Of a stretch of 47,665 nucleotides of DNA, positions 1,149 to 29,101 are shown in pieces (within the stretch, counting starts at the first letter, position 1; each line of letters opens with the position of its first letter). Made by a program: the position numbers and the translations under genes. Source of the DNA: an uncultured Muribaculaceae bacterium (GTDB lineage: Bacteria > Bacillota_I > Bacilli_A > RF39 > UBA660). The notes beneath the pieces are model-generated. The model ran no database searches. It had not been told where the DNA came from and was given only the letters and a program-made list of their open reading frames with translations. The DNA is taken from the NCBI GenBank assembly GCA_964561805.1, contig CAZLQU010000002.1, positions 1 through 47,665 of the forward strand. The letters run 5' to 3'.

Positions 1149-2084
1149 GTGATGCTAGTGGAAAAGGATTTTAAAACTATCGACCAGCAAATTGATATTT
1201 TTAAGAAAAAGGGATTAATAATTGATGATGAAGTTATGGCTAAAGATATTCTTCTTAAAGAGAATTATTTCTTTTTGAATGGTTATAGACATATATTTAT
1301 GAATTCACCTACGGATAGGACTTTTGTATCCGGAGCTAGTTTTAGTGAGTTATATGCAGTATTTTGTTTTGATAGATACTCTAGAAATATATTTTTTAAG
1401 AATTTATTAATTATTGAAAATAGACTTAAATCAGTTATTTCTTATCAGTTATCTAAGAAATATGGATATAAAGAGAAGGATTATTTGAATCCTAGGAATT
1501 TTACGCGAGATCCAGAAAAGAAAAGAAGAGTTAAAGACGTTATTGAAAAGATGAAACGTCAGATTAGAATCAATACAGGTAGACATAATGCAACGATGCA
1601 CTATTTAAAAAATTATGGTTATATTCCTTTGTGGATTTTAGTTAAGGTTTTATCTTTTGGAATGGTATGTGAATTATATTCAATTATGACTGATGAGGAT
1701 AAATTAGAAGTATCTTCAGTATTTGATAGAACTGTTGATATGTTAGAGAGTTTTTTACCACTACTTTCTAATGATCGTAATGTATGTGCACCTGAGGATA
1801 TCGTTTTTGATCATAAGACTGAAAGAAGTATTCCTGATACTGAATATCATAAAAAACTTAATATTTTTAAGATGGATGATGAATATATTTATGGGAAGAA
1901 TGATTTATTTGCAGTAATTATCATATTTAAAATGATGCTTGAAGATGATGAGTTTAGAATGATGTTAAAAGAGTTTGAATATGAACTTGAGAAATTAGAT
2001 AGTAGGGTAGATTCAATACCGGTTGAAAAGATGCTTGATACGATGGGTGTACCTAAGAATTATATGGACATAATTGATATGTAG
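1149..2084 (+). CDS. Abi_2 family (AbiD/AbiF-like) abortive-infection protein
   Basis: N-terminus FKTIDQQIDIFKKKGLIIDDE...ENYFFLNGYRHIF and the later RNVCAP block fit the Abi_2 pattern. The start is ambiguous (GTG 1149, ATG 1152 or GTG 1158). Confidence 0.75.
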   Translation: MMLVEKDFKTIDQQIDIFKKKGLIIDDEVMAKDILLKENYFFLNGYRHIFMNSPTDRTFVSGASFSELYAVFCFDRYSRNIFFKNLLIIENRLKSVISYQLSKKYGYKEKDYLNPRNFTRDPEKKRRVKDVIEKMKRQIRINTGRHNATMHYLKNYGYIPLWILVKVLSFGMVCELYSIMTDEDKLEVSSVFDRTVDMLESFLPLLSNDRNVCAPEDIVFDHKTERSIPDTEYHKKLNIFKMDDEYIYGKNDLFAVIIIFKMMLEDDEFRMMLKEFEYELEKLDSRVDSIPVEKMLDTMGVPKNYMDIIDM

Positions 2085-2094
2085 AGGTGATAAT

Positions 2095-3288
2095 ATGGAA
2101 GAAAATGAAGTAGTAAAAGAAAAAGAGGAGAAAAGAGAGATACCAAGAGTGCTTGATGATGTTGTGGTTGAGGAGAAAAAACCAAAAGTGAAGAAGAAAA
2201 AAACTGTGAATGGTGTTGGTATTTTAATTTTAAGTATCATTATATCGTTTATATGTGGAATGTTGGGAGCTTATTATATAAGTAAAACTTTTAGTGTGGA
2301 GCAAGTTGTTAAAAATGTTACAACAAGTGAATTAATTGAGAATAGTATTTCATCATCTGTTGATAAGGTATATGGTTCAACGGTTGTAATTACAGCATAT
2401 GCGAGTGGTAAACAAATTTCTACAGGGACAGGTTTTATTTATAAGAAAAACGATAAATTAGCATATATTATGACTAATAATCATGTTATTGATGGAGCTG
2501 ATGAAGCAAAGATTGAGTTTAATGATAATGATAAGAAAATTGATGCTAAAATTGTTGGCGGAGATAAATATGCAGATATTGCTGTTCTAACTATTCCTGA
2601 TAATGAAGAGTATAAGACAGTTGAAATTGGTGACAATGAGGTTTTAAAATTAGGTGATACAATATTTACTGTGGGAACGCCCATGGGTTCTATTTATAAA
2701 GGAACGGTTACTAAGGGTATTTTATCTGGCAAGGATAGAATGATTTCTGTAAATGTAACTGGTAGTACGGCTGATTATTATATGAAAGTTATACAAATAG
2801 ATGCCGCAGTAAATCCTGGCAATAGTGGCGGACCATTATGTGATGTATCTGGTAATGTTATTGGAGTAATAAGTCTAAAGATTGTTGAAGATACAGTTGA
2901 AGGTATGGGGTTTGCAATTCCAATTGAAGATGCTTTAAAATATGCAAATCTTATCGAAGAAGGCGGCCAAATCAGTAGACCATATGTTGGAATTACAATG
3001 GCTGATTTATCAGAAGAATATTATTTATGGCAAAATAGAATTTCAATTCCAGATGGTGTAGATGAAGGCATTGCTGTAATTTCAGTAGAAAAAGGTTCTC
3101 CGGCCGAGAAAGCAGGACTTAAGAAAGGCGATATTATCGTCACTTTGGGTGGAGCAAAGGCTGGCAGTTTAGCAGAATTTAGATATGAACTTTATAAATA
3201 TGATGTTGGCGAAAAAGTTGAAATTGAATATTATCGTGATAGTAAAAAACAAAAAACGATAGTGACACTTGGTAAAAACCAATCATAG
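2095..3288 (+). CDS. htrA: Membrane-anchored HtrA/DegP-type serine protease with C-terminal PDZ domain
   Basis: Catalytic triad context TNNHVI / DIAVL / GNSGGPL. PDZ-like GSPAEKAGLKKGDIIV. N-terminal TM helix. RBS GAGGTGA precedes ATG 2095 (the ORF-track start 2074 is less likely). Confidence 0.9.
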   Translation: MEENEVVKEKEEKREIPRVLDDVVVEEKKPKVKKKKTVNGVGILILSIIISFICGMLGAYYISKTFSVEQVVKNVTTSELIENSISSSVDKVYGSTVVITAYASGKQISTGTGFIYKKNDKLAYIMTNNHVIDGADEAKIEFNDNDKKIDAKIVGGDKYADIAVLTIPDNEEYKTVEIGDNEVLKLGDTIFTVGTPMGSIYKGTVTKGILSGKDRMISVNVTGSTADYYMKVIQIDAAVNPGNSGGPLCDVSGNVIGVISLKIVEDTVEGMGFAIPIEDALKYANLIEEGGQISRPYVGITMADLSEEYYLWQNRISIPDGVDEGIAVISVEKGSPAEKAGLKKGDIIVTLGGAKAGSLAEFRYELYKYDVGEKVEIEYYRDSKKQKTIVTLGKNQS

Positions 3289-3394: not shown

Positions 3395-3928
3395 ATGAAA
3401 GCTATAGGAAACTTTTTACTAGACATTGTAATAGGAGCATGGCTTATTGCCGCTATTTTTGTAACGGTTTGTTTACTATCATATAACGATTTTAGAGTTA
3501 CAACTTTTGGTAGTACAGCGTTATTAATTATTGACGATGATTCAATGGAGCCAACTTTTAAAGAAGGTGATTTAGTCATTGTTAAAAGAAATAGCGATAA
3601 TAAGATAAATGTTGGTGATAAAGTATTCTACTATAATAGTGCAATGGACAGTAATGTATGGATTTACTTAGATGATGTTGAAGAAAAGACACCAATTACA
3701 AGGGATGAAACATCATATAAACTTGCTGGTAAAACGGTATCAGGTGAATATGTTATTGGTAAAGCAGATGGCGCCAGGGTAATGCATCATGCAGGTACTT
3801 TCCTTGGAATATTTACTTCTAGATGGGGATTTATGTTTTTAGTAATATTCCCAACATTATTTGCCATTATTTATGAAATCATGATGATTATTGATGCTAG
3901 ACGTGATATGAAACATAGTGAAATCTAG
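3395..3928 (+). CDS. sipW: SipW-like (ER/archaeal-type, S26B) signal peptidase paralogue 1, divergent
   Basis: N-terminal TM, serine box DDDSMEPTFKEGDLVIVKR, C-terminal TM. It lacks the I-T-H-R and K-G-D-N-N blocks seen in paralogues 2 and 3. Confidence 0.8.
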   Translation: MKAIGNFLLDIVIGAWLIAAIFVTVCLLSYNDFRVTTFGSTALLIIDDDSMEPTFKEGDLVIVKRNSDNKINVGDKVFYYNSAMDSNVWIYLDDVEEKTPITRDETSYKLAGKTVSGEYVIGKADGARVMHHAGTFLGIFTSRWGFMFLVIFPTLFAIIYEIMMIIDARRDMKHSEI

Positions 3929-4478: not shown

Positions 4479-4499
4479 AAAGAGGAAGTGAGGTGTGAT

Positions 4500-5369
4500 A
4501 TGAGCCACCTAAAGAAAATTACACGAATTGTCGTAAATATTTTTACATGTTTACTTTTGGTAATACTTGTTTTAGTAGTTTATGGCAAATTAGCAACAAC
4601 ATTTGGTAAAAATAAGTATCCAAATTATTTTGGTTATACTTTTTTTGAGGTAGCAAGTGGCTCTATGGAACCGGCACTTTATGTAAACGATGTTGTTTTA
4701 GTTAAAATAACCCAAGATGATTTTAAGGAAAATGATATAATTGCTTTTCATAGTGAGGATGCAATTATTACCCATCGTATTTTGTTTATTGATGGCGATA
4801 TTATTACGGTTAAGGGAGATCATAATGATGTTATTGATAAACCAATTACAAGAAGTCAAGTAATTGGTAAGATAATTAAAGTATTTCCAGAAATGGGAAT
4901 ATGGAAAAAGGTTTTAACTGATCCAAAAATTATATTTGCCATCTTTATAACACTACTTTTATTTGATTTTGCTTTGTCTTATGGAGACAAGGATAAAAAA
5001 ATGGAAAAGATGCTTGATTTGGATGAAGGAAAACCAGTATCTGAAATGGTTACAAATGAACCAAAGGTAGAAGAAAAAGTTGAAATAAAAGAAGATAAAA
5101 AGAAAGTCATCGAATCTGAGAAACTGCTTGAATTAACAAGAAAAATTGATATTGATGAAATTAATAAATTACTTGAGGGAACTGAATATAAATTAGAAAA
5201 AAGAGAAATAAATAATATTAAAAAAGAAATCAGTAAGATTGAGGAAAGTAAAGATAAGGGCGAAGAAATTGTTCCAAAATTTAATGAAAATGAAAGAAAG
5301 GTTTTGGAATATACACTTAGACTTGATTTAAATAGGATTCAGAAGAATATTGATAGTAAAGTTAAATAG
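4500..5369 (+). CDS. sipW: SipW-like signal peptidase paralogue 2 with a ~125-aa Lys/Glu-rich C-terminal extension
   Basis: SGSMEPALYVNDVVLVK, ITHRILF and KGDHNDVID blocks, then a second TM, then a K/E-rich coiled-coil-like tail. RBS GAGGAAGTGAGGTG favours ATG 4500 over GTG 4488. Confidence 0.85.
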   Translation: MSHLKKITRIVVNIFTCLLLVILVLVVYGKLATTFGKNKYPNYFGYTFFEVASGSMEPALYVNDVVLVKITQDDFKENDIIAFHSEDAIITHRILFIDGDIITVKGDHNDVIDKPITRSQVIGKIIKVFPEMGIWKKVLTDPKIIFAIFITLLLFDFALSYGDKDKKMEKMLDLDEGKPVSEMVTNEPKVEEKVEIKEDKKKVIESEKLLELTRKIDIDEINKLLEGTEYKLEKREINNIKKEISKIEESKDKGEEIVPKFNENERKVLEYTLRLDLNRIQKNIDSKVK

Positions 5370-6917: not shown

Positions 6918-7895
6918 ATGAATTATAATATTATTGAAGAATATCTTAGTTTTAATCGTGAAAAATACTTAGAATTTTTTAAGATTTTACTTGGTAGTCG
7001 TTATCAAAAATATTTATGTGCACTATTTATAGATAAATATATTAGTGTTAGATATTTTAATGAAACTAATTATTTAACTGAGAAAGATTTTATTAAGAGA
7101 ATTAATAAAGAATTAGTTGATTTAACTGAAAAATTAGCAAATGATGATAATATTGAAGATATTAAAAATATCGTGGCTTTATTCGGCTACATAGTATATT
7201 TTGATGATATTTGTGTTGTTACCCAGGATATGGAACTAATTAATACTTTGGTAACTGATGATGTTATAAAGATAAGAAATAAAGAAGAATTAAAACAGTC
7301 AATTAAAGATTGGTATATCAGTTTAAAAAAAGGTAAAGAAAAGTTTAATAATACACTGATGACTAAAGATTTTAGCTTGCTTGAAGTTAGGTTATATCGT
7401 AAGTTATATAATTTGGAGTTAGAACACAACGTTAAGATATCAAATTTATATAGCGAATATGCAATTGATAAAGCTTATAATAGTGGAACAGTGAATGAAG
7501 ATAAATTATTTATTACTTATATTTTGGCATCAGATTTAGTTTTAAATAATGCAATTAATTTAGATTTTTCTAGATATTATATGGTTCCATTGGCTAATAC
7601 GTTATTTGAAAAAGAGAAGAAATTCACGAGACTTATTAATGTTATTAATAATGGCTTAGCTAAGAAATTTATATCAATTAGAATTACTTATAGTGATTAT
7701 AAAAAAAATAAAAATAAAATTAACGATTTGATTAGTGAAGGATATTCTTTTGGAATAGAACTCGATAGTAAATATACGGGGAATACGAGTGAACTTGTAT
7801 TGTTTCCATATATATTCGTGTATGAAGATACACCAGAATATGAGATGTTAATGCGCGAAAAAGATCTGTTAAAGTCGAAAATTATCAAATTATAA
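6918..7895 (+). CDS. Cytoplasmic protein of unknown function; the C-terminal half may be a degenerate EAL-like fold
   Basis: Strong RBS TAGGAGGT. No signal peptide or TM. Blocks LLEVRLY / YYMVPLANTLF / ISIRITYSDY / LISEGYSFGIELD / LVLFPYIFVYED occur in the same order as EAL-domain motifs, but with catalytic residues replaced. Confidence 0.7.
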   Translation: MNYNIIEEYLSFNREKYLEFFKILLGSRYQKYLCALFIDKYISVRYFNETNYLTEKDFIKRINKELVDLTEKLANDDNIEDIKNIVALFGYIVYFDDICVVTQDMELINTLVTDDVIKIRNKEELKQSIKDWYISLKKGKEKFNNTLMTKDFSLLEVRLYRKLYNLELEHNVKISNLYSEYAIDKAYNSGTVNEDKLFITYILASDLVLNNAINLDFSRYYMVPLANTLFEKEKKFTRLINVINNGLAKKFISIRITYSDYKKNKNKINDLISEGYSFGIELDSKYTGNTSELVLFPYIFVYEDTPEYEMLMREKDLLKSKIIKL

Positions 7896-7904
7896 GGAGG
7901 TACT

Positions 7905-9428
7905 ATGGATACTTTTTTAAGATTCTTGTATGAGTTTTTAGCTCAATTCTTTAATGGTATAAAATTTATTGCTTTGGGAATATTTAATGGCTTTAAAGCA
8001 ATTTTCAATGTGCCTGAATACATCAAAGTAATTAATGAATACAAAGATGATTTATCATTACCTGAATGGTTACTGGTAGGGCTTGCCATTCTTACTACGT
8101 TAATTGTTTTAGGTTTAATTGTCTTTGGTATATACTTCCTTATTAGAAAATATATAAGAGTAAGAAAAACTTTAGTCGATCAAGAATCATTACTTGAGGA
8201 AGTTGGAACACTTAATAATGAAGTAGCTAAATTAGTTCAAGAAAAACAAACAATTTTAGCAATGAAGGTTTCACAGCTTGGACTTAAACCGGGAGAATCA
8301 GCTACGGAAGATGCTAAAGAACCTGGGGATAATGTTGATCCTAATACAGAAATTAGATTTCCTAAGTTATATGATGTTGATCAGAAATTTAAAGATTATA
8401 AGATTCAGAATTATGGTAATTCATTTGAACTTCCAGAGTTTGTTGAATTATTCCGTAACTTTGCAGCTAGTCAATTAAAACTATATTATACGACTGATAT
8501 GATAAGATTGTTCGTATCGGCTTTGGCTAGTACAAAGTTAGTTATTTTACAAGGTATTTCTGGTACCGGTAAAACTTCCTTGGCATATGCTTGGGGAAAA
8601 TTCTTGAAACATGACTCATGTATTGCTTCAGTGCAGCCATCATGGCGTGATAGAACTGAGTTATTCGGATACTTCAACGAATTTACTAAACGTTTCAATG
8701 AGACTGAAGTATTAAAAGAGATGTATGTTGCAGGATATACAGATGATATATATACAGTAATCCTCGATGAAATGAACATCTCACGTGTTGAGTATTATTT
8801 TGCGGAAATGCTATCAATACTTGAGATGCCTAATAAAGATGAATGGATTGTTGAAATAGTACCAAGTGCATGGAAGAGTGACCCAGTACATTTAATGGAA
8901 GGTAAACTTAAAATACCACCAAATATGTGGTATATTGGAACAATCAATAACGATGACTCGACATTCATGGTAACCGATAAGGTATACGACCGTGATATGC
9001 AAATAGATATCAATGATAAAGGTCAAGTATTTGAGCCAATTGATACTCCGGCTCAAGATATAAACTTCTCTTATTTGGATAAGAAATTTCAAGAAGCAAT
9101 TAAGAATAATCCAATACATGAAGAGAATCTTAAGAAAATTGAAGAAATGGATGATTATGTTATTCAACACTTCAGAATTGCTTTTGGTAACCGTATCGTA
9201 GCACATATGCGTAAGTTTGTACCAGTGTTTGTAGCGTGCGGTGGCGATGAAATTAGAGGAATTGATTATTTCATTGCTCGTAAGATTTTAAGAAAATTTG
9301 AACAGTTAAAAATTGCATATATTAGAGATGAAATTGATGGCTTTGTCAAATTCTTGAATGATAATTTTGGTGAAGGTAAAATGGCAGAGTGCATTGAATA
9401 TTTATTAAGACTTAAAAAGATGGCGTAG
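7905..9428 (+). CDS. Membrane-anchored, coiled-coil-linked McrB-like AAA+ (AAA_5) NTPase
   Basis: TM WLLVGLAILTTLIVLGLIVFGIYFLI followed by RKYIRVRK, then a short heptad-like segment. Walker A LQGISGTGKTSLA (8553-8576). VQPSWRDRTELFGYFNEF. Walker B VILDEMNISRVEYYFAEMLSILE. IGTINNDDSTFMVTDKVYDRDMQIDI. Confidence 0.8.
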   Translation: MDTFLRFLYEFLAQFFNGIKFIALGIFNGFKAIFNVPEYIKVINEYKDDLSLPEWLLVGLAILTTLIVLGLIVFGIYFLIRKYIRVRKTLVDQESLLEEVGTLNNEVAKLVQEKQTILAMKVSQLGLKPGESATEDAKEPGDNVDPNTEIRFPKLYDVDQKFKDYKIQNYGNSFELPEFVELFRNFAASQLKLYYTTDMIRLFVSALASTKLVILQGISGTGKTSLAYAWGKFLKHDSCIASVQPSWRDRTELFGYFNEFTKRFNETEVLKEMYVAGYTDDIYTVILDEMNISRVEYYFAEMLSILEMPNKDEWIVEIVPSAWKSDPVHLMEGKLKIPPNMWYIGTINNDDSTFMVTDKVYDRDMQIDINDKGQVFEPIDTPAQDINFSYLDKKFQEAIKNNPIHEENLKKIEEMDDYVIQHFRIAFGNRIVAHMRKFVPVFVACGGDEIRGIDYFIARKILRKFEQLKIAYIRDEIDGFVKFLNDNFGEGKMAECIEYLLRLKKMA

Positions 9429-9437
9429 GTGATATAA

Positions 9438-10544
9438 ATGGGTAAACTTAAAGTCACGGAATTACTTGATACATTGGGTGAACGTGAACAAGATAAGTTT
9501 AACAATAATATTCGTTCTAGTTTGGTAGTCAATACTGATATTAACAGAGTTGATGCTGATTTTGAGTGGCTTGAGATTATGGAAGATACGATTAAGTATT
9601 TGGATAATATCTTGAGAAACCCCAATAGATTTATCGTCAACGAAGAGGAGATCGTTAAAGTTGAACTTGCTAGGAGAATAACTGTCGAGAGTATTAGGCA
9701 TTTATCAAAACATACCAATTATATTCAGAAAATTGAAGATAATGGGGATGTAAAACCATCTAAAATTTTAAATATTCAAAAAGATGAAAGTTATGATACT
9801 TATGAAAATAGGTTGATATATACATTGATTGAAAATATGCGTAACTTTGTGGAAATTAAAAAGAAAAGTTTGGTTTCAACATCTAGTATTAAAGATGTTA
9901 AGAAAGCTAAATATAATGCTAAAACGAGTATTGGCAAAGAGCAAGTATTTATTGAACTAAACTATACATCTAGTCTAGTTGATAAGAAGGAACCACAGGG
10001 TGAAAGACCGCTTGAAGAGCGTATTAAAAGGCTTGAAGATGATATTACGATGCTTAGCAATACAGATGTGTATAAGACTTTAAAGAAATTACATGTGGCA
10101 AGAGTAATTCCCCCAATAAAGAAAACTAACGTAATTTTAAAGAATACAAATTTCCAATATGCGATGAAATTATGGGATTTCTTGCAGAATCATGTTGCTG
10201 ATGATACGAAAGTATTTAAAAGTAATAAGAAATTTGAAGATAATGGCATATTAAAAGAATATATTAATAATACTTTCCTTTTGGATTATTTGGCAATGAA
10301 TACACTTAGTGAAAAAAGGCCAAAAGAAAAACAACGTGAGGTTGTCGAAGAACTTACAGATAATTTAATTCAGCGCATTGTGGAATTAAATGTCGATTTA
10401 CCACTTACTGAGTTGAAGGAAAAAATTGGCGATAAAATGGCGATTATTAAATATCGCAGAGAAGCTAGTTTAGCTGAGGTTCAGAATGCTTTTTCTGAAC
10501 GTATTAAGAGTTACTTAGAGAAAATTGAAAACTTAAAGTTGTGA
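9438..10544 (+). CDS. McrC N-terminal-domain-like (DUF2357-like) partner protein without a recognisable PD-(D/E)xK nuclease
   Basis: Starts 9 nt after the AAA+ gene. Block ILNIQKDESYDTYENRLIYTLIENM resembles the McrC-family x-D-x-x-E-N-R-h-h motif. The C-terminal half is helical and K/E-rich, and I see no D...(D/E)xK context. Confidence 0.55.
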   Translation: MGKLKVTELLDTLGEREQDKFNNNIRSSLVVNTDINRVDADFEWLEIMEDTIKYLDNILRNPNRFIVNEEEIVKVELARRITVESIRHLSKHTNYIQKIEDNGDVKPSKILNIQKDESYDTYENRLIYTLIENMRNFVEIKKKSLVSTSSIKDVKKAKYNAKTSIGKEQVFIELNYTSSLVDKKEPQGERPLEERIKRLEDDITMLSNTDVYKTLKKLHVARVIPPIKKTNVILKNTNFQYAMKLWDFLQNHVADDTKVFKSNKKFEDNGILKEYINNTFLLDYLAMNTLSEKRPKEKQREVVEELTDNLIQRIVELNVDLPLTELKEKIGDKMAIIKYRREASLAEVQNAFSERIKSYLEKIENLKL

Positions 10545-10552
10545 GGTGACAT

Positions 10553-11080
10553 ATGAAAACTTTATTTAGAATTATTAAAGGAATAATTACAGTCTTTTTG
10601 TGTGTTGTTTTACTACTCGTAATATTCCAAAAGTTTACAAAAAATAGAGTTGCTTTAGGAAACATATATATATTTCAAGTTGTTTCTGAAAGTATGATAC
10701 CTGAGTATAAAATTGGCGATATTATTGTCACTAAAAAAGCAAATCCTGTATCTTTAAAAGTTGGAGATGACGTTACATACGTTGCGTCTGCTGAAGGCAT
10801 TAATGGGATGACTATTACCCATAGAATTATCAGTAAAAGAGAAGCTGGTGGCAAGTATTATTTTGTGACTAAAGGTATTAATAATCCAATAGAGGATCCG
10901 GAAATATCAGAAGATATGATCTATGGTAAAGTAATATACCATACAATTCTATTTAGTTTTGTTGGTAGGTTAATGACCAATATTGTAATTTATTACATTT
11001 TATTTGTTAGTGTCGGAGTAGCTTTTTCATATGAGGTTGTTTCATCATTTTTCATAAAAGACAAAGACGAGGATGATTAG
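10553..11080 (+). CDS. sipW: SipW-like signal peptidase paralogue 3
   Basis: SESMIPEYKIGDIIVTKK serine box, ITHRIISK, TKGINNPIEDP, N- and C-terminal TMs, RBS GAGGTGA. Confidence 0.85.
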   Translation: MKTLFRIIKGIITVFLCVVLLLVIFQKFTKNRVALGNIYIFQVVSESMIPEYKIGDIIVTKKANPVSLKVGDDVTYVASAEGINGMTITHRIISKREAGGKYYFVTKGINNPIEDPEISEDMIYGKVIYHTILFSFVGRLMTNIVIYYILFVSVGVAFSYEVVSSFFIKDKDEDD

Positions 11081-11081
11081 T

Positions 11082-11717
11082 ATGTCCGATGATAAAAAGA
11101 AAAAAAGGCGCCATTTATTAAAACCATCAAGACTTGTATTCTTGATTGTTTTACTAGCGGCCAATACTTTTGCATGGTTTATTTATGCGACCAAGATCAA
11201 TACCGATGTTTCTGTCCATGTTAGGGCTTGGAATGTCGTTCTTGAAAGTGGCGAGAATGAATTATCAAACGATGTAGATATTGATATTGATAGTATTTAT
11301 CCAGGAATGGATGACTATGAATATGAGATAACGGCATATAATCATAGTGAAGTTAGCGCAAGTATGACTTATGAGATACTTAGCGTGAGAATTCTAAGTA
11401 CTTCCTATTATACGGCAGAAGAAAAGCAACGATTAGGATTAACCATTACTGGTGATGAGCCAACTTCAGCAGATTTAGAAGATATGCTTGAAAATGACTT
11501 CCCGTTTAGTATTACATTTGAAACCTCAAGCAATACGATAGCTCAAGGGAATGGTGAAGAAACATACACCTTAGCCGTTGTTTGGCCATATGAAAGCAAT
11601 GATGATGAAACAGATACCTTATGGGGTAGTAATGCTTATACATATAAACAGAGCAATCCTACAAGTCCTAGTATTGCTCTGAAAGTTAGAATTATAATTA
11701 CACAAAATCCAGACTAG
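11082..11717 (+). CDS. Short-class TasA/CalY-like secreted protein (P4)
   Basis: KKKKRRHLLKPSRLVFLIVLLAANTFAWFIYATK signal region. VVWPYESNDDETDTLWG C-terminal motif. GAGGA sits 8 nt before ATG 11082 (ORF-track start 11073 is less likely). Confidence 0.7.
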   Translation: MSDDKKKKRRHLLKPSRLVFLIVLLAANTFAWFIYATKINTDVSVHVRAWNVVLESGENELSNDVDIDIDSIYPGMDDYEYEITAYNHSEVSASMTYEILSVRILSTSYYTAEEKQRLGLTITGDEPTSADLEDMLENDFPFSITFETSSNTIAQGNGEETYTLAVVWPYESNDDETDTLWGSNAYTYKQSNPTSPSIALKVRIIITQNPD

Positions 11718-25226: not shown

Positions 25227-26855
25227 ATGAGTGACTATAGTGTTGTTATTAGCGATAATATTTTTAGTAAATATGAAGCAGCATTAATTATTGATGTTCA
25301 AGGTGATAAGATCTATAAGTATGTTAATAATGCTGGTCATTTTGCGTGTGAGAAAGAATCTTCTTATATCGAATATTTCGATGAATGTCGTAAATTTATT
25401 GATCCTGATGATGTCGAAGGTTACATCGATTCACTTTCTATATCAAAATTAGAAAATACTGGTGGTAAAGCAGTATATAATTATAAGATGCTATCAGATA
25501 AAATTGGTAGTTATTTAGCATATACTAATGAAATATCTTTATATGAAGAAAATGATAAAAAAATAGTCGTTGTATTGGTAGCTAAGATGGTCGGTACACC
25601 AGTAATTGAAAAGGCAGATAACACAAAAACCAATTTAGAGGGGAAACTTAATAAATTAGTGGACGCTGTTAGCTTAGCAATGTTAAAAATTCATAATATT
25701 ATTAATATGGATAATAATTTAAGACCCAAAGATGAGTATATAAATTCGATCTTAGTTGGATTAACGACTGATTATCCAGAATTGAATAAATCATTTACCG
25801 ATAATGCTTCTGAGATTTATAGTAGTGGTAGAACGGCAATTATGATCATTGATGATGATTCAATGACATGTAATCTAATTGGTAAGATATTTAATAAAGA
25901 TTATGATATTATTACAGCCGGTAATGGTGAAGAAGCAATTGCGAAGTTAAAGGATGCTAAAACAAATAATATTAATATTTCTTGTATTTTCCTTGATTTA
26001 ATTATGCCAGTATTAGATGGTTTTAGTGTATTAGATTATTTAAATGGCAACAATTATTTAAATAAGTTACCAGTAATTATCATTAGTGGTAATTATGATA
26101 AAGAAACAAGAAATAAAGCATATAGTTACCAAATTGCCGATATGCTAGAAAAACCATTTAATGCACAAGTTATTAGGCATAGAATTGAAAATTTAATAAA
26201 TTTATATCGTTCTAGTGGTAATATCAATGAAATGATGTTAAAGCAACATGAAAATTTAAAAAACATTATTAGTTCTATTGTTGTCTCTTATGAGATGGAT
26301 AATGGCCTAATGATGGCTAATATTAAGAAATATGTAAAATTATTAGCAATGCAAGTATCGGTAGAATATCCAGAGTATAATTTAAGTAGTAATATGATTG
26401 AAAAGATTAGTAATTCAGCAAGTTACTATGCAATCGGTAATTATACATTATCAAAGGCATTGCTTGATAAAAAAGGCGAATATACCGATAGTGAGAAAGA
26501 AAGTATTAAAAAAGCAAATATTAATGGGGCTGCAATTATTAAGTATGTTGTTTCACTTAATAATAATGAGATTGATTCTAAGTATGCTTATGAAATTGCT
26601 AAATATTACAATGAAAGATATGATGGTATGGGATATCCTGAAAAACTTAGTGGGGAAGGGATTCCTTTGGCAGCACAAATTGCTAGTTTAGCTATTGAAT
26701 ATGCACATCTAGTAAATACGATGGTTCCAGTTGATTATGGTAGAATTGCATCATTAATTATTATGGAAGCAGGTCATAAATTTAATCCAAAGATGGTTGA
26801 AGCATTTAAGAAAGTAGAACCAGAATTTGCCGCTATTACTAAATTAGGAGGCTAG
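25227..26855 (+). CDS. Response regulator: unknown N-terminal domain, canonical REC, and a degenerate HD-GYP output domain
   Basis: REC: IMIIDDDS, IFLDLIMPVLDG, VIIISG, LEKPF. HD-GYP region: YYAIGN in place of H-D-x-G-K, YYNERYDGMGYP in place of H-H-E-R-x-D-G-x-G-Y-P. Confidence 0.85.
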   Translation: MSDYSVVISDNIFSKYEAALIIDVQGDKIYKYVNNAGHFACEKESSYIEYFDECRKFIDPDDVEGYIDSLSISKLENTGGKAVYNYKMLSDKIGSYLAYTNEISLYEENDKKIVVVLVAKMVGTPVIEKADNTKTNLEGKLNKLVDAVSLAMLKIHNIINMDNNLRPKDEYINSILVGLTTDYPELNKSFTDNASEIYSSGRTAIMIIDDDSMTCNLIGKIFNKDYDIITAGNGEEAIAKLKDAKTNNINISCIFLDLIMPVLDGFSVLDYLNGNNYLNKLPVIIISGNYDKETRNKAYSYQIADMLEKPFNAQVIRHRIENLINLYRSSGNINEMMLKQHENLKNIISSIVVSYEMDNGLMMANIKKYVKLLAMQVSVEYPEYNLSSNMIEKISNSASYYAIGNYTLSKALLDKKGEYTDSEKESIKKANINGAAIIKYVVSLNNNEIDSKYAYEIAKYYNERYDGMGYPEKLSGEGIPLAAQIASLAIEYAHLVNTMVPVDYGRIASLIIMEAGHKFNPKMVEAFKKVEPEFAAITKLGG

Positions 26856-26859
26856 TTCC

Positions 26860-29046
26860 ATGTTTAATGCTATTTCTTTACAATTTGCCAGTCTTATATA
26901 TGTAGTAGTTTTAGCAGTAGTATATTTTTTAAAGCGTAAGTATAACTTTATGGAAAGTAAAATATATAAGATTTTATTAATAGTTACGATGTTTGTTTTG
27001 TTATTTGATATGCTAAATATTTATATAACTGTTAAAAATATTTATATATTTGGAGTATTACCAGTAATAACGGAACTATATTTTATTAGTTTGTTTGTTT
27101 GGTTAATACTCTTTGTTTCATATGTTTTATTAAGTAGAAGTAATAAAAAGTATGAGTCTCTTAGCGCGGTAATTGACGAATATCCTATTACATATTTATG
27201 GATTGGAATTATCGTTGTTGTATTTATCTTATTAATAATTGCACAGTTATTGATTGAATACTATCAGGTTAACTATTACGGGCAGGATGTCGATTTAATT
27301 TATATTTTAGGTATTATTGGTTCTTTGATAGTTTTATTTGTGCTTATTGTTAAGAATAAAAATGTTCCTAATTATAAGAATTGGGCTGTATTAGTTTCAA
27401 CTTTAATTTTGCTTGTAACAATCGTAATTCAAATGTTTAATAAGGAATATTCAATTATTGGTACGGGATTCTCATTGATTACATTATTTCAATATTTTAC
27501 CTTGGAAAATCCCGATTTAAAGTATATTGATGAACTTAATGCATTGAAGGTAAAGGCTGAAGAAGCTAATATGGCAAAGACTAATTTCTTAGCTAGTATG
27601 AGCCATGAAATAAGGACACCAATGAATGTAATAATTGGGTTATCAGAGACAATTCTTCAAGGTAATCCACCACCAGAGTTAAAAAATGATATTAAAAATA
27701 TTAATGAAGCAGGTACAATTCTTTTAGAGATTGTTAACAACATTTTGGATATTACAAAGGTTGAAGCTGGTAAAACAACACTTCACAATGCTCCATATAG
27801 TTTAGCCGATACAATTGCTAAGTTATCACATATTACAAAGATATCATTAATGGATAAACCAATTAAATTTGATGTTGAAGTAATTGGTAATATTCCTAGT
27901 ACTTTAAATGGCGATGAGGTAAAAGTATATCAAATACTTATGAATATTTTATCTAATGCCGTTAAGTATACTAAAAAGGGAAGTATTAAATTTACAATTG
28001 AATCAGTAATATCAGGTAATAAAGATATTTTAACATTCAAAGTTAGTGATACTGGTATCGGTATAAAGAAGGCCGATAATGCAAAATTATTTGAAAAATT
28101 TGAGAGATTGGATCAGGAGCAAAGTGATATTCAAGGTACTGGACTTGGGCTTGTTATTACTAAAAAATTGCTTGACTTAATGGGCGGTAAAATTAGTTTT
28201 GAAAGTGAATATCAAAAAGGAACTACTTTTACTATTAATTTAGAACAGGAAATATTAGATAAATCACAAGTAAATTTTGAAACATATAAAGCTAAGAAAT
28301 TATCAGTTGATGAATACTTTGATGGTAGTAAGTATAAGGTTTTACTTGTTGATGATAATTTACTTAATTTGAAGGTGGCAGAGAAATTACTTAAAAAATA
28401 TAATATTCAAGTTACTTCAGTTAATAGTGGTTTAGAGTGTTTAAATATTACTAAAAATAATAAATATGATTTGGTTCTTTTGGATCATATGATGCCGGAA
28501 ATGGATGGTATTCATACATTATATAATTTAAAGAAAAGGGCATCAGGGTTTGATACGCCAGTAGTTGTTTTAACTGCTAATGCTATTGAAGGTTCTAAAG
28601 ATATGTATTTAAAAGAAGGATTTGTCGATTACTTATCTAAGCCAATCGATCAGGTAGAACTTGATAGAATTTTGCGTGAGCAATTAAAAATTGGTGAAGA
28701 TGCTCCAGTATTAGCTGAACAAACTGTTGTAAATCAACCTATGACTTCTTCTCAACCAGATTCACCAACTAAACCAGAACCACCAAAAATAATATCTGTG
28801 GAGCAACTAAGGGAAAGTAATGCGCCAGCTACTTCAGAAACAGCTCAACCAATATTTCCAGTAGAAAATACTACACAACCTGTAAATAATAATCAACCGG
28901 TTCAACCAATATTTCCAACTAGTAGTGAGCAGGTAGATAATAGTAGTGTTTCGGTAGCGCCAGTATTTCCAACGGAAAATCAACCAGTAAAAAATGAAGA
29001 TACGGTGGTAACACCAATATTTGATTTAGATAATAAAAATAATTAA
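26860..29046 (+). CDS. Hybrid sensor histidine kinase (polytopic N-terminus, HisKA, HATPase, REC, Pro/Gln-rich repeat tail)
   Basis: About 6 hydrophobic helices. H-box SHEIRTPMN, N-box NILSNAVKYT, G-boxes DTGIGI and GTGLGL. REC: LLVDDN, LLDHMMPEMDG, LSKPI. The tail has four (Q/A/T)P(I/V)F(P/D) repeats. Confidence 0.9.
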   Translation: MFNAISLQFASLIYVVVLAVVYFLKRKYNFMESKIYKILLIVTMFVLLFDMLNIYITVKNIYIFGVLPVITELYFISLFVWLILFVSYVLLSRSNKKYESLSAVIDEYPITYLWIGIIVVVFILLIIAQLLIEYYQVNYYGQDVDLIYILGIIGSLIVLFVLIVKNKNVPNYKNWAVLVSTLILLVTIVIQMFNKEYSIIGTGFSLITLFQYFTLENPDLKYIDELNALKVKAEEANMAKTNFLASMSHEIRTPMNVIIGLSETILQGNPPPELKNDIKNINEAGTILLEIVNNILDITKVEAGKTTLHNAPYSLADTIAKLSHITKISLMDKPIKFDVEVIGNIPSTLNGDEVKVYQILMNILSNAVKYTKKGSIKFTIESVISGNKDILTFKVSDTGIGIKKADNAKLFEKFERLDQEQSDIQGTGLGLVITKKLLDLMGGKISFESEYQKGTTFTINLEQEILDKSQVNFETYKAKKLSVDEYFDGSKYKVLLVDDNLLNLKVAEKLLKKYNIQVTSVNSGLECLNITKNNKYDLVLLDHMMPEMDGIHTLYNLKKRASGFDTPVVVLTANAIEGSKDMYLKEGFVDYLSKPIDQVELDRILREQLKIGEDAPVLAEQTVVNQPMTSSQPDSPTKPEPPKIISVEQLRESNAPATSETAQPIFPVENTTQPVNNNQPVQPIFPTSSEQVDNSSVSVAPVFPTENQPVKNEDTVVTPIFDLDNKNN
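28843..29025 (+). repeat. Four ~18-aa x-P-I/V-F-P repeats encoding the kinase C-terminal tail
   Basis: caaccaatatttcca (28846), caaccaatatttcca (28903), gcgccagtatttcca (28954), acaccaatatttgat (29008). Confidence 0.7.
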
Positions 29047-29076: not shown

Positions 29077-29101
29077 AGAAGCACAAAAATGCTTCTTTTT
29101 T
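29077..29101 (+). terminator. Rho-independent terminator after the kinase
   Basis: agaagca-caaaaa-tgcttct hairpin followed by a T-run. Confidence 0.75.

What the first reader, a model, noticed from the sequence alone, without database searches (positions are those of the whole stretch)
25227..26855. Response regulator with an HD-GYP domain in which all metal-binding His residues are replaced but GYP is intact
Where HD-GYP phosphodiesterases have H-D-x-G-K, H-x-x-x-G and H-H-E-R-x-D-G-x-G-Y-P, this protein reads YYAIGN, ANINGA and YYNERYDGMGYP. HD is replaced by YA and HH by YY, yet DG-x-GYP and the downstream IPLAAQI helix are kept. The domain is therefore predicted to be catalytically inactive and to act as a cyclic-dinucleotide sensor or protein-interaction module. 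The REC domain sits in the middle, preceded by a ~200-aa N-terminal domain that I cannot assign. If the degenerate EAL-like reading of the 325-aa protein holds, the locus would contain two inactive c-di-GMP-type domains and no cyclase.
Basis: seen in the sequence. Interest (0 to 1): 0.6.

Follow-up and report, generated by a model that had tools for sequence, protein, structure and literature searches.

The report
Catalytically dead HD-GYP response regulator
This gene encodes the last protein of a three-gene phosphorelay in an uncultured small-genome gut/rumen bacterium; its output domain is a c-di-GMP phosphodiesterase (HD-GYP) fold that has lost its metal centre, so it probably signals by protein contact, which is a known kind of regulator in a new family.

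Summary
The ORF is real: 25227-26855 (+), 542 aa. The quoted motifs are present. The c-di-GMP-specificity motif RxY[K/R] is deleted. E463 and DGxGYP (466-471) are kept. No His in the domain is conserved. All 166 full-length relatives are degenerate. The same method recovers the full canonical ligand set in 112 of the 150 best library representatives.

The domain is under purifying selection (dN/dS 0.10-0.28). The unassigned N-terminus is a PAS-like fold followed by helices. The receiver residues are invariant. Only the Hpt-RR-hybrid kinase genes are syntenic, in 36 loci.

The lineage's only GGDEF protein is also degenerate (DGNEF). No EAL or PilZ was found. A c-di-GMP sensor role is therefore unlikely. 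The EAL-like reading of the 325-aa protein has no support.

Verdict: a new family of the known class of inactive RpfG-type regulators (HnoD, NosR, DvhD-like domains). The partner is unknown. This scan has noted degenerate HD-GYP regulators before, on other genomes.

The parts
24764..24792 (+). Terminator-like hairpin ending the upstream fibre-locus transcript (after the 509-aa gene)
   Evidence: 12-bp stem followed by a T-run.
24810..24838 (+). Promoter-like site (TTTACC-17-TATAGT) ahead of the Hpt gene. Weak evidence only.
   Evidence: The number of such sites in the region does not exceed the shuffled expectation.
24854..25225 (+). Stand-alone histidine phosphotransfer (Hpt) protein, 123 aa, phospho-His H65 in VHALKSN
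   Evidence: Pfam Hpt E 0.0027; TorS Hpt region E 4.9e-5. A profile of 11 orthologues hits solved HPt proteins and LuxU. H65 is invariant. The gene is present in 36 of 36 related loci.
25227..26855 (+). Response regulator gene, 542 aa: PAS-like, helical linker, REC, stalk helix, degenerate HD-GYP
25269..25586 (+). PAS-like sensor fold (residues about 15-120)
   Evidence: AF2 model with pLDDT about 90 in this part. The Foldseek top hits are almost all PAS/LOV domains, E 4e-5 to 1e-3. There is no Pfam match.
25623..25823 (+). Helical linker (residues about 133-199) between PAS and REC, with conserved K154, N157 and YIN 171-173
25833..26201 (+). Receiver (REC) domain, residues 203-325, with D210, D211, phospho-acceptor D257, S287 and K309
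   Evidence: Pfam E 3.4e-19. These residues are invariant or near-invariant in 166 family members.
26163..26300 (+). Long stalk helix (residues 313-358) joining REC alpha-5 to the HD-GYP domain
   Evidence: AF2 secondary structure. Lowest dN/dS (0.03) in the closest pair.
26286..26846 (+). Degenerate HD-GYP domain (residues about 354-540). 7 of 8 metal ligands are replaced and RxY[K/R] is deleted.
26613..26639 (+). Retained E-R-Y-D-G-M-G-Y-P loop (E463 to P471), the most conserved stretch of the domain and the candidate interaction surface
   Evidence: Among 166 members: E463 in 165, G467 in 164, G469 in 164, Y470 in 154 (plus 8 F), P471 in 164.
26860..29046 (+). Hybrid histidine kinase, 728 aa: six predicted TM segments (1-190), HisKA with H249, HATPase, and REC with D542
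   Evidence: Pfam, NCBIfam BarA/TorS-like. Syntenic in 35 of 36 loci, duplicated in 19.
29077..29096 (+). Terminator-like hairpin closing the three-gene operon

Best explanation
The gene encodes the terminal response regulator of a self-contained multi-step phosphorelay. A membrane hybrid kinase (H249, D542) passes phosphate to a stand-alone Hpt protein (H65), which passes it to REC D257 of this protein. The output domain has the HD-GYP fold but has lost its di/tri-metal centre and its c-di-GMP-specificity motif. It therefore neither hydrolyses nor, most likely, senses c-di-GMP.

The former active site is filled by conserved Tyr, Ile, Met and Ala residues. The DGxGYP loop and a few pocket residues (D358, K415, E463) stay almost invariant.

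Inferred mechanism:
1. Phosphorylation of D257, modulated by the N-terminal PAS-like sensor, is transmitted through the long REC-to-HD-GYP stalk helix.
2. This changes the dimer arrangement or exposure of the dead HD-GYP domain.
3. The domain then binds or releases a protein partner through the GYP loop. RpfG does this with GGDEF proteins independently of catalysis, and HnoD does this with HnoB.

Shown here: the architecture, the loss of ligands, purifying selection, the conserved three-gene module, and the absence of other intact c-di-GMP enzymes. Inferred: the protein-contact output and the role of the GYP loop. The partner is unknown.
For: - Ligand mapping.
- Family-wide residue counts in 166 sequences: H221 position Y146/F19 and never H; D305 position I152 and never D; H189 position never H.
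- No family member has more than 4 of 7 canonical ligands.
- Positive control: 112 of 150 library representatives show the full canonical set with the same HMM alignment.
- Fold retained: Foldseek to PA4781 E 2.4e-13, also PmGH and DvhD.
- Purifying selection: dN/dS for HD-GYP* is 0.10-0.28, lower than for the PAS part.
- REC catalytic residues are invariant, Hpt H65 is invariant, and the kinase motifs are present.
- Only Hpt, RR and HK are syntenic across 36 loci. The genes are separated by 1 and 4 nt and bracketed by terminator-like hairpins.
- No messenger machinery. The sole GGDEF reads DGNEF/DGNEY in 11 genus orthologues and in 5 RR-bearing genomes (4 of them additional, drawn from other clades). 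No EAL and no PilZ were found in 94-95%-complete genomes.
- Precedents: inactive RpfG-family regulators acting by protein contact (HnoD, ECA3548; bioRxiv 10.1101/2021.11.05.467447), and the GYP-dependent, catalysis-independent RpfG-GGDEF interaction (PMC3749722).
Against: - No partner is identified. No gene other than Hpt and the kinase(s) is conserved next to it.
- Co-occurrence with the degenerate GGDEF protein is uninformative, because that protein is present in most family genomes with or without this regulator.
- Inactivity is inferred from sequence only.
- Several pocket residues (D358, K415, E463, D466, Y470) are conserved more strongly than a purely structural relic would need, which leaves room for a small-molecule ligand.
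- The genome is a 73%-complete MAG. Absence claims rest on its 94-95%-complete relatives.
Confidence: 0.6

Rival explanations
1. Metal-independent cyclic-dinucleotide receptor. The dead HD-GYP pocket would bind c-di-GMP or a related nucleotide, as the degenerate HD-GYP of Desulfovibrio DvhD does, and ligand plus phosphorylation would jointly set the output.
For: DvhD (HD>SQ, HH>MN) binds c-di-GMP without metals and does not hydrolyse it (PMC13090378). DvhD's HD-GYP is a structural match (9rbz, E 3.9e-8). The GYP Tyr (Y470), the KPG-like K415 and the acidic D358/E463/D466 are near-invariant.
Against: DvhD binding needs R650 and Y652/R653, which are the RxY[K/R] motif responsible for guanine specificity in PmGH. 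That motif is deleted here and absent in the window's clade. K225 is N405. The lineage has no intact GGDEF (DGNEF only), no EAL and no PilZ in 94-95%-complete genomes, so there is no evident endogenous ligand.
Confidence: 0.15
2. Specific messenger-free pairing. The phosphorylated regulator would dock through its GYP loop on the degenerate GGDEF domain of the lineage's single SBP-TM-GGDEF* membrane protein. This would couple the phosphorelay to an extracellular solute sensor using two relics of a lost c-di-GMP network.
For: RpfG binds GGDEF proteins through GYP irrespective of cyclase activity (PMC3749722). Every RR-bearing genome examined that is at least 92% complete has exactly one GGDEF protein, always the roughly 685-aa DGNEF/DGNEY orthologue. 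Both dead domains are strongly conserved.
Against: The GGDEF* protein also occurs in genomes of the same GTDB family without the regulator (G014, G015, G017, G018), so co-occurrence carries no signal. The two genes are never adjacent. The GGDEF* 'DxD'-type segment reads DLN/NLN. If that segment is the DxD motif RpfG needs, it is lost. No complex prediction could be run.
Confidence: 0.12
3. Still an enzyme. An alternative O-ligand metal site built from D358, E463, D466 and Tyr side chains (a purple-acid-phosphatase-like Tyr-Fe site) would support hydrolysis of some phosphoester.
For: D358, E463, D466, Y401 and Y470 are near-invariant and line the former active site. His>Tyr is the recurrent substitution across the family (YD / YPxxG / YHE in the distant clade).
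Against: The other ligand positions are hydrophobic or variable: I490; A430 (A/Y/S/T); 402 (G/A/D/S); 362 (M/N/A/S/I). The substrate-binding RxYK is deleted. All experimentally tested HD-GYPs lacking HD/HHE are inactive (HnoD, DvhD).
Confidence: 0.04
4. Decaying relic. The HD-GYP part would be a functionless remnant on its way to loss, and the protein would act only as a phosphate sink or through its PAS domain.
For: All catalytic residues are gone. Substitution patterns differ between clades.
Against: dN/dS is 0.10-0.28 for the domain, lower than for the PAS part. The domain is intact and full-length in 166 non-identical sequences down to about 30% identity, with invariant E463 and G-x-G-Y-P. 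No frameshifts or stops were seen in the full-length ORFs recovered from 33 of the 36 related loci. In the other three, the ORF is truncated at a contig end, contains masked residues (X), or was initially mis-extracted.
Confidence: 0.04

Closest known systems
HnoD (Shewanella oneidensis SO_2541), an inactive RpfG-family response regulator
   Same: REC plus a degenerate HD-GYP (HD>SE, HHE>QLE). It does not hydrolyse c-di-GMP, acts by protein-protein contact (it inhibits the REC-EAL enzyme HnoB), and is fed by a phosphorelay network (Galperin & Chou, bioRxiv 10.1101/2021.11.05.467447).
   Different: HnoD works inside an active c-di-GMP network. Here no cyclase, EAL or PilZ is detectable. This protein has an extra N-terminal PAS-like domain and different substitutions (YA, YNE).
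NosR family (NCBIfam NF053512), REC plus HD-GYP-type response regulators of Burkholderia
   Same: It is the best NCBIfam hit (E 2.2e-22, residues 338-534) and has the same REC/HD-GYP-type output.
   Different: The score is 79.7 bits against a cut-off of 400, so this protein is not a member. NosR has no PAS-like N-terminus.
DvhD HD-GYP domain (Desulfovibrio vulgaris; PDB 9RBZ/9RC0)
   Same: The HD-GYP fold has HD and HH replaced and GYP kept, with no metals and no hydrolysis (PMC13090378). It is a structural match. A PAS domain and a helical stalk precede the domain.
   Different: DvhD is a membrane dCache-PAS-HD-GYP c-di-GMP receptor that keeps the RxYR binding motif. Here that motif is deleted, the protein is a cytoplasmic REC-containing regulator, and the organism appears to lack c-di-GMP synthesis.
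RpfG (Xanthomonas campestris)
   Same: REC-HD-GYP regulator downstream of a hybrid kinase. The GYP motif mediates phosphorylation-dependent binding to GGDEF proteins independently of catalysis (PMC3749722).
   Different: RpfG has the full HD/HHE ligand set. There, the Hpt is part of the kinase RpfC rather than a separate protein (from my own knowledge).
PA4781 and PmGH (active HD-GYP phosphodiesterases; PDB 4R8Z, 4MCW)
   Same: They are the closest solved structures by sequence (E 2e-15) and by fold (E 2.4e-13). DGxGYP and the following IP-helix are shared.
   Different: Every His and Asp metal ligand present in those enzymes is replaced here, and RxYK is absent.
PA2572 'YN-GYP' protein of Pseudomonas aeruginosa
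   Same: From my own knowledge (Ryan et al. 2009), not verified here: a REC plus HD-GYP variant in which HD reads YN, which is enzymatically inactive but regulatory. The H>Y replacement is the same as here.
   Different: A review held in the library says only that two of the three P. aeruginosa HD-GYP proteins (PA4108, PA4781, PA2572) show activity, without saying which. No sequence comparison was made here.

Membership tests
HD-GYP domain (homology / fold) | Significant match to the HD-GYP sequence model and fold | tested here: met
   Pfam HD_5 36 bits, above the 27.2 cut-off. phmmer to PA4781 E 2e-15. Foldseek to 4r8z E 2.4e-13, also 4mcw and 9rbz.
Active HD-GYP phosphodiesterase | Metal ligands H189, H221-D222, H250, H276-H277 and D305 (PmGH numbering) | tested here: not met
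   They read M362, Y401-A402, A430, Y461-N462 and I490. None is restored in any of 166 relatives beyond 4 of 7. The same method finds the canonical set in 112 of 150 representatives.
Active HD-GYP phosphodiesterase | RxY[K/R] guanine-specificity motif and the KPG motif | tested here: not met
   RxYK is deleted (TMV---P against SERVYKD). KPG reads KKG, with K415 invariant.
Active HD-GYP phosphodiesterase | GYP motif within HHExxDGxGYP | tested here: met
   E463 and D466-G-M-G-Y-P471 are present and near-invariant in the family.
Active HD-GYP phosphodiesterase | Hydrolysis of c-di-GMP, pGpG or cGAMP | not testable with these tools
   Needs a biochemical assay.
RpfG family of response regulators (REC-HD-GYP), inactive subgroup | Phosphorylatable REC directly upstream of an HD-GYP-type domain | tested here: met
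   REC E 3.4e-19. D210, D211, D257, S287 and K309 are invariant. REC is followed by the stalk helix and HD-GYP*. There is an additional N-terminal PAS-like domain.
NosR family (NF053512) | Score above the curated cut-off (400 bits) | tested here: not met
   79.7 bits.
DvhD-type degenerate HD-GYP c-di-GMP receptor | Canonical-site binding residues (K582, GYP Tyr Y621, R650, Y652/R653) and measured c-di-GMP binding | tested here: not met
   The GYP Tyr is present, but the R-x-Y-R equivalent is deleted. Binding itself is not testable here.
HDOD (HD-related output domain) | Match to the Pfam HDOD model | tested here: not met
   HDOD is not among the Pfam hits at E<=1. Only HD_5 is found.
Multi-step His-Asp-His-Asp phosphorelay | Hybrid kinase with H-box and receiver Asp, an Hpt with phospho-His, and a terminal REC with Asp, all encoded together | tested here: met
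   HisKA, HATPase and REC in the kinase, with H249 and D542. Hpt H65 is invariant and the profile hits HPt proteins and LuxU. D257 is present. The three genes are contiguous in 36 loci. Phosphotransfer itself was not tested.
PAS domain | Five-stranded antiparallel sheet with flanking helices, and similarity to solved PAS/LOV domains | tested here: met
   The AF2 model has pLDDT about 90 over 15-120. The Foldseek top hits are nearly all PAS/LOV, E 4e-5 to 1e-3. There is no Pfam PAS match, so this is fold-level only.

The most novel reading that the evidence does not exclude
These small-genome gut Bacilli may have lost c-di-GMP itself but kept two of its protein modules as a nucleotide-free signalling pair. 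The phosphorylated PAS-REC-HD-GYP* regulator would dock through its invariant GYP loop on the dead (DGNEF) GGDEF domain of the single SBP-TM-GGDEF* membrane protein. A phosphorelay and an extracellular solute sensor would then converge by pure protein contact: a fossil second-messenger network working without the messenger.
Probability: 0.12. Interest if true: 0.65.

Novelty: new member of a known kind. Interest (0 to 1): 0.3.

Why it matters
Automated annotation will call this protein an 'HD-GYP domain response regulator' or a c-di-GMP phosphodiesterase. In this lineage that is almost certainly wrong: genome-based inference of c-di-GMP signalling in these uncultured gut and rumen Bacilli would be a false positive.

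The case adds a well-conserved family to the small set of inactive HD-GYP regulators. The family has 552 homologues at E<=1e-5 and occurs in 37 species-level genomes. It also offers a clean natural experiment: the only GGDEF and the only HD-GYP domain of a 1.2-1.4 Mb genome are both catalytically dead yet under purifying selection. That makes it a good system for asking what the GYP loop does when no nucleotide is involved.

It does not change any general principle. Inactive RpfG-type regulators (HnoD, NosR) and a metal-free HD-GYP receptor (DvhD) are already described.

Tried and rejected
1. Regulator dedicated to the adjacent surface-fibre (SipW / McrBC-like / giant beta-helix protein) locus: rejected.
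   - Adjacency is seen only in close relatives (L003, L013, G012).
   - The phyletic patterns of the fibre genes and of the regulator are uncorrelated. Seven genomes have the RR without the fibre genes, including the 95%-complete G003 and G005. Four have the fibre genes without the RR, including the 97%-complete G024.
   - Terminator-like hairpins separate the operons.
2. EAL-like reading of the 325-aa ORF (6918-7895): no Pfam hit to EAL even at E<=10, and no EAL anywhere in the genome or in 5 relatives.
3. Metal ligands from shifted positions: the domain has only 3 His and none is invariant in the family.
4. Co-occurrence of the regulator with the degenerate GGDEF protein as evidence of partnership: uninformative, because the GGDEF* protein is nearly ubiquitous in the GTDB family.
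5. Conserved flanking genes as a clue to the target: all-against-all clustering of ORFs in 36 loci found nothing beyond Hpt, RR and HK.
Full report
**Observation**

Pfam finds a receiver domain at 205-320 (E 3.4e-19). It also finds HD_5, the HD-GYP-type model, at 386-513 (E 7.7e-9, above the curated cut-off). Nothing matches residues 1-200. The closest solved relatives are the HD-GYP phosphodiesterases PA4781 (4r8z, E 2e-15) and PmGH (4mcw).

I aligned the protein to those two structures and to canonical REC-HD-GYP proteins from the 1.84-billion-protein library. In PmGH numbering the alignments give:

| PmGH residue | Here |
|---|---|
| E185 | D358 |
| H189 | M362 |
| H221-D222 | Y401-A402 |
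| K225 | N405 |
| K235-P-G | K415-K-G |
| H250 | A430 |
| H276-H277 | Y461-N462 |
| E278 | E463 |
| DGxGYP | D466-G-M-G-Y-P471 |
| D305 | I490 |

The RxY[K/R] motif is removed by a three-residue deletion. There is one register correction: HH becomes YN, not YY.

**Is it an alignment artefact?**

No. I built an HMM of the domain and aligned the 150 best library representatives to it. Of these, 112 show the complete canonical string E-H-HD-K-K-H-HHE-DG-GYP-D. Every protein that also carries this N-terminal domain is degenerate. The domain contains only three His (341, 494, 517), and none is invariant across the family: H341 is kept in 105 of 166 members, H517 in 86 and H494 in 2. His ligands cannot be supplied from shifted positions.

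**The family**

A word-indexed search found 552 homologues at E<=1e-5, the best 120 of them at 62-99% identity. A genome scan found the gene in 37 species-level genomes. All are uncultured gut or rumen 'Bacilli / Mollicutes / Erysipelotrichaceae / Clostridiales' MAGs of about 1-1.4 Mb.

Residue counts in 166 non-identical full-length members:
- The H221 position is Y (146) or F (19), never H.
- The D305 position is I in 152, never D.
- The H189 position is never H.
- H276 survives in 21 members and H277 in 32.
- No member has more than four of the seven His/Asp ligands. The three that have four (P0130, P0131, P0139) have lost or damaged the DGxGYP loop instead.

The more distant clade reads YD / YPxxG / YHE. 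The window's clade reads YA / ANING / YNE. By contrast, D358, Y400, G404, Y406, K415, E463, D466, G467, G469, Y470 and P471 are invariant or nearly so.

The domain is under purifying selection, with dN/dS of 0.10 in the closest pair and 0.16-0.28 in others. That is lower than for the N-terminal domain. It is a maintained, non-catalytic domain, not a decaying one.

**The rest of the protein**

An AlphaFold2 model built on 42 family sequences has mean pLDDT 81. A separate model of residues 1-200 also has mean pLDDT 81, rising to about 90 over residues 15-120.

The N-terminal model matches almost exclusively PAS/LOV domains in the PDB: Brucella LOV-HK, YtvA, FixL, HIF/ARNT and EcDOS, with E from 4e-5 to 1e-3. 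Residues about 15-120 are therefore a PAS-like sensor fold. They are followed by helices 133-199, then REC, then a 45-residue helix (313-358) that runs into the HD-GYP fold.

The REC residues D210, D211, D257, S287 and K309 are invariant or near-invariant in all 166 members, so the receiver is phosphorylatable.

The N-terminal domain is specific to this family. A profile of it found matches only in the window's own GTDB family. There it hit 10 of 13 other genomes of the genus and two other genera. It found nothing in about 180 other genomes of the class.

**Context**

The gene is separated by 1 nt from an upstream 123-aa gene and by 4 nt from a downstream 728-aa gene.

- The upstream protein is a stand-alone Hpt. 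It matches Pfam Hpt and the TorS Hpt region. A profile of 11 orthologues hits solved HPt proteins and LuxU, and H65 in VHALKSN is invariant.
- The downstream protein is a hybrid kinase with six predicted membrane helices, HisKA (H249), HATPase and REC (D542).

Terminator-like hairpins lie at 24764-24792 and 29077-29096 and bracket the three genes.

In 36 related loci the only genes conserved with the regulator are Hpt (36 of 36) and the kinase (35 of 36). Nineteen loci carry two tandem kinase paralogues. Two loci have the order HK-Hpt-RR. This is a self-contained His-Asp-His-Asp phosphorelay whose terminal acceptor is the protein in question.

The neighbouring surface-fibre locus was described in earlier notes of this scan. 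It is adjacent only in close relatives, and its phyletic pattern is uncorrelated with that of the regulator. I do not regard the relay as dedicated to it.

**Is there any c-di-GMP to sense?**

Six-frame HMM searches of the window's genome (73% complete) found one HD-GYP (this gene), one GGDEF and no EAL.

The GGDEF protein is about 685 aa, with solute-binding-type extracytoplasmic domains, a membrane helix and a GGDEF domain. It reads RTDGNEF where cyclases have RxGG(D/E)EF, and IDLNNIK where they have DxDxFK. The same degenerate signature (DGNEF, SGNEF or DGNEY) is found in all 11 orthologues examined in the genus and its GTDB family, and in 5 regulator-bearing genomes (4 of them additional, drawn from other clades). 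In each of those genomes it is the only GGDEF match.

Genus genomes that are 94-95% complete have no EAL and no PilZ. One 67%-complete MAG has an extra canonical GGDEF fragment, which may be contamination. On present evidence the lineage cannot make c-di-GMP.

**Comparison with what is known**

Catalytically inactive RpfG-family regulators are established. HnoD (HD>SE, HHE>QLE) does not hydrolyse c-di-GMP and inhibits HnoB by contact. ECA3548 is another example (Galperin & Chou). The best NCBIfam hit here is the NosR family, at 79.7 bits against a cut-off of 400, so the protein is not a member.

RpfG binds GGDEF proteins through its GYP motif after phosphorylation, independently of any enzyme activity (PMC3749722).

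In 2026 the degenerate HD-GYP of Desulfovibrio DvhD (HD>SQ, HH>MN) was shown to bind c-di-GMP without metals. It uses the GYP tyrosine together with R650 and Y652/R653 (PMC13090378). Those last residues are the RxY[K/R] motif, which also sets guanine specificity in PmGH. That motif is exactly what is deleted here.

It favours a phosphorylation- and PAS-gated protein-contact output (about 0.6). A specific pairing with the dead GGDEF protein is an attractive but untested sub-hypothesis (about 0.12).

The Tyr, Ile, Met and Ala residues at the former ligand positions most simply read as a hydrophobic filling that stabilises a metal-free fold. This is inference only.

**Verdict**

The object is a new, lineage-restricted family (PAS-like, REC, dead HD-GYP) of an already known class. 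Its modest extra interest is that it sits in organisms whose whole c-di-GMP toolkit consists of two dead domains. This scan has already noted degenerate HD-GYP regulators in other genomes, with HnoD and NosR as the closest known relatives.

No complex prediction or 3D conservation mapping could be done.

Noticed in passing
G000 contig C18, about 7400-9320 (locus L002:1-1935): The genome's only GGDEF-domain protein is about 685 aa, with solute-binding-type extracytoplasmic domains, a TM helix and a GGDEF domain. It has a degenerate signature: RTDGNEF instead of RxGG(D/E)EF, and IDLNNIK instead of DxDxFK. The signature is conserved as DGNEF/SGNEF/DGNEY in all 11 genus and family orthologues examined, and in 5 regulator-bearing genomes, 4 of them additional ones from other clades. 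It is strongly conserved overall, so it is probably a non-catalytic sensor.
   Followed up: partly
L014, L016, L018, L019, L021 and others (about 7600-11300 in each locus): In 19 of 36 related loci, two tandem hybrid histidine-kinase paralogues follow the regulator instead of one. In L035 and L037 the gene order is HK-Hpt-RR.
   Followed up: partly
Proteins P0130, P0131, P0139 (library representatives): Some distant family members show the opposite decay pattern. They keep H250 and HHE (and YD for HD), but the DGxGYP loop is lost or damaged: it is fully lost in P0131 and P0139, while P0130 lacks only the GYP Tyr. Different parts of the active site therefore decayed independently in different clades.
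   Followed up: partly
window 3395-3928, 4488-5369, 10553-11080: Three paralogous S24/S26-type (SipW-like) signal peptidase genes lie in the upstream fibre locus. An Abi_2 protein (1149-2084) and an HtrA-like Trypsin_2-PDZ protease (2074-3288) lie at its 5' side.
   Followed up: no
window 7905-9428 and 23251-24780: The McrB-like NTPase and the 509-aa coiled-coil protein of the fibre locus have identical phyletic patterns among 31 relatives: the same 9 genomes, including one from another family of the class. This fits one mobile or patchily retained module that is independent of the phosphorelay.
   Followed up: partly
G006 contig C4:13233-13661 (locus L043): One 67%-complete genus MAG carries a second, canonical GGDEF domain (RYGGDEF) in a short 215-aa frame. 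It could be contamination or a rare intact cyclase in the genus.
   Followed up: no
window 24764-24792 and 29077-29096: Terminator-like hairpins bracket the Hpt-RR-HK genes, marking them as a transcription unit separate from the giant-protein operon.
   Followed up: yes
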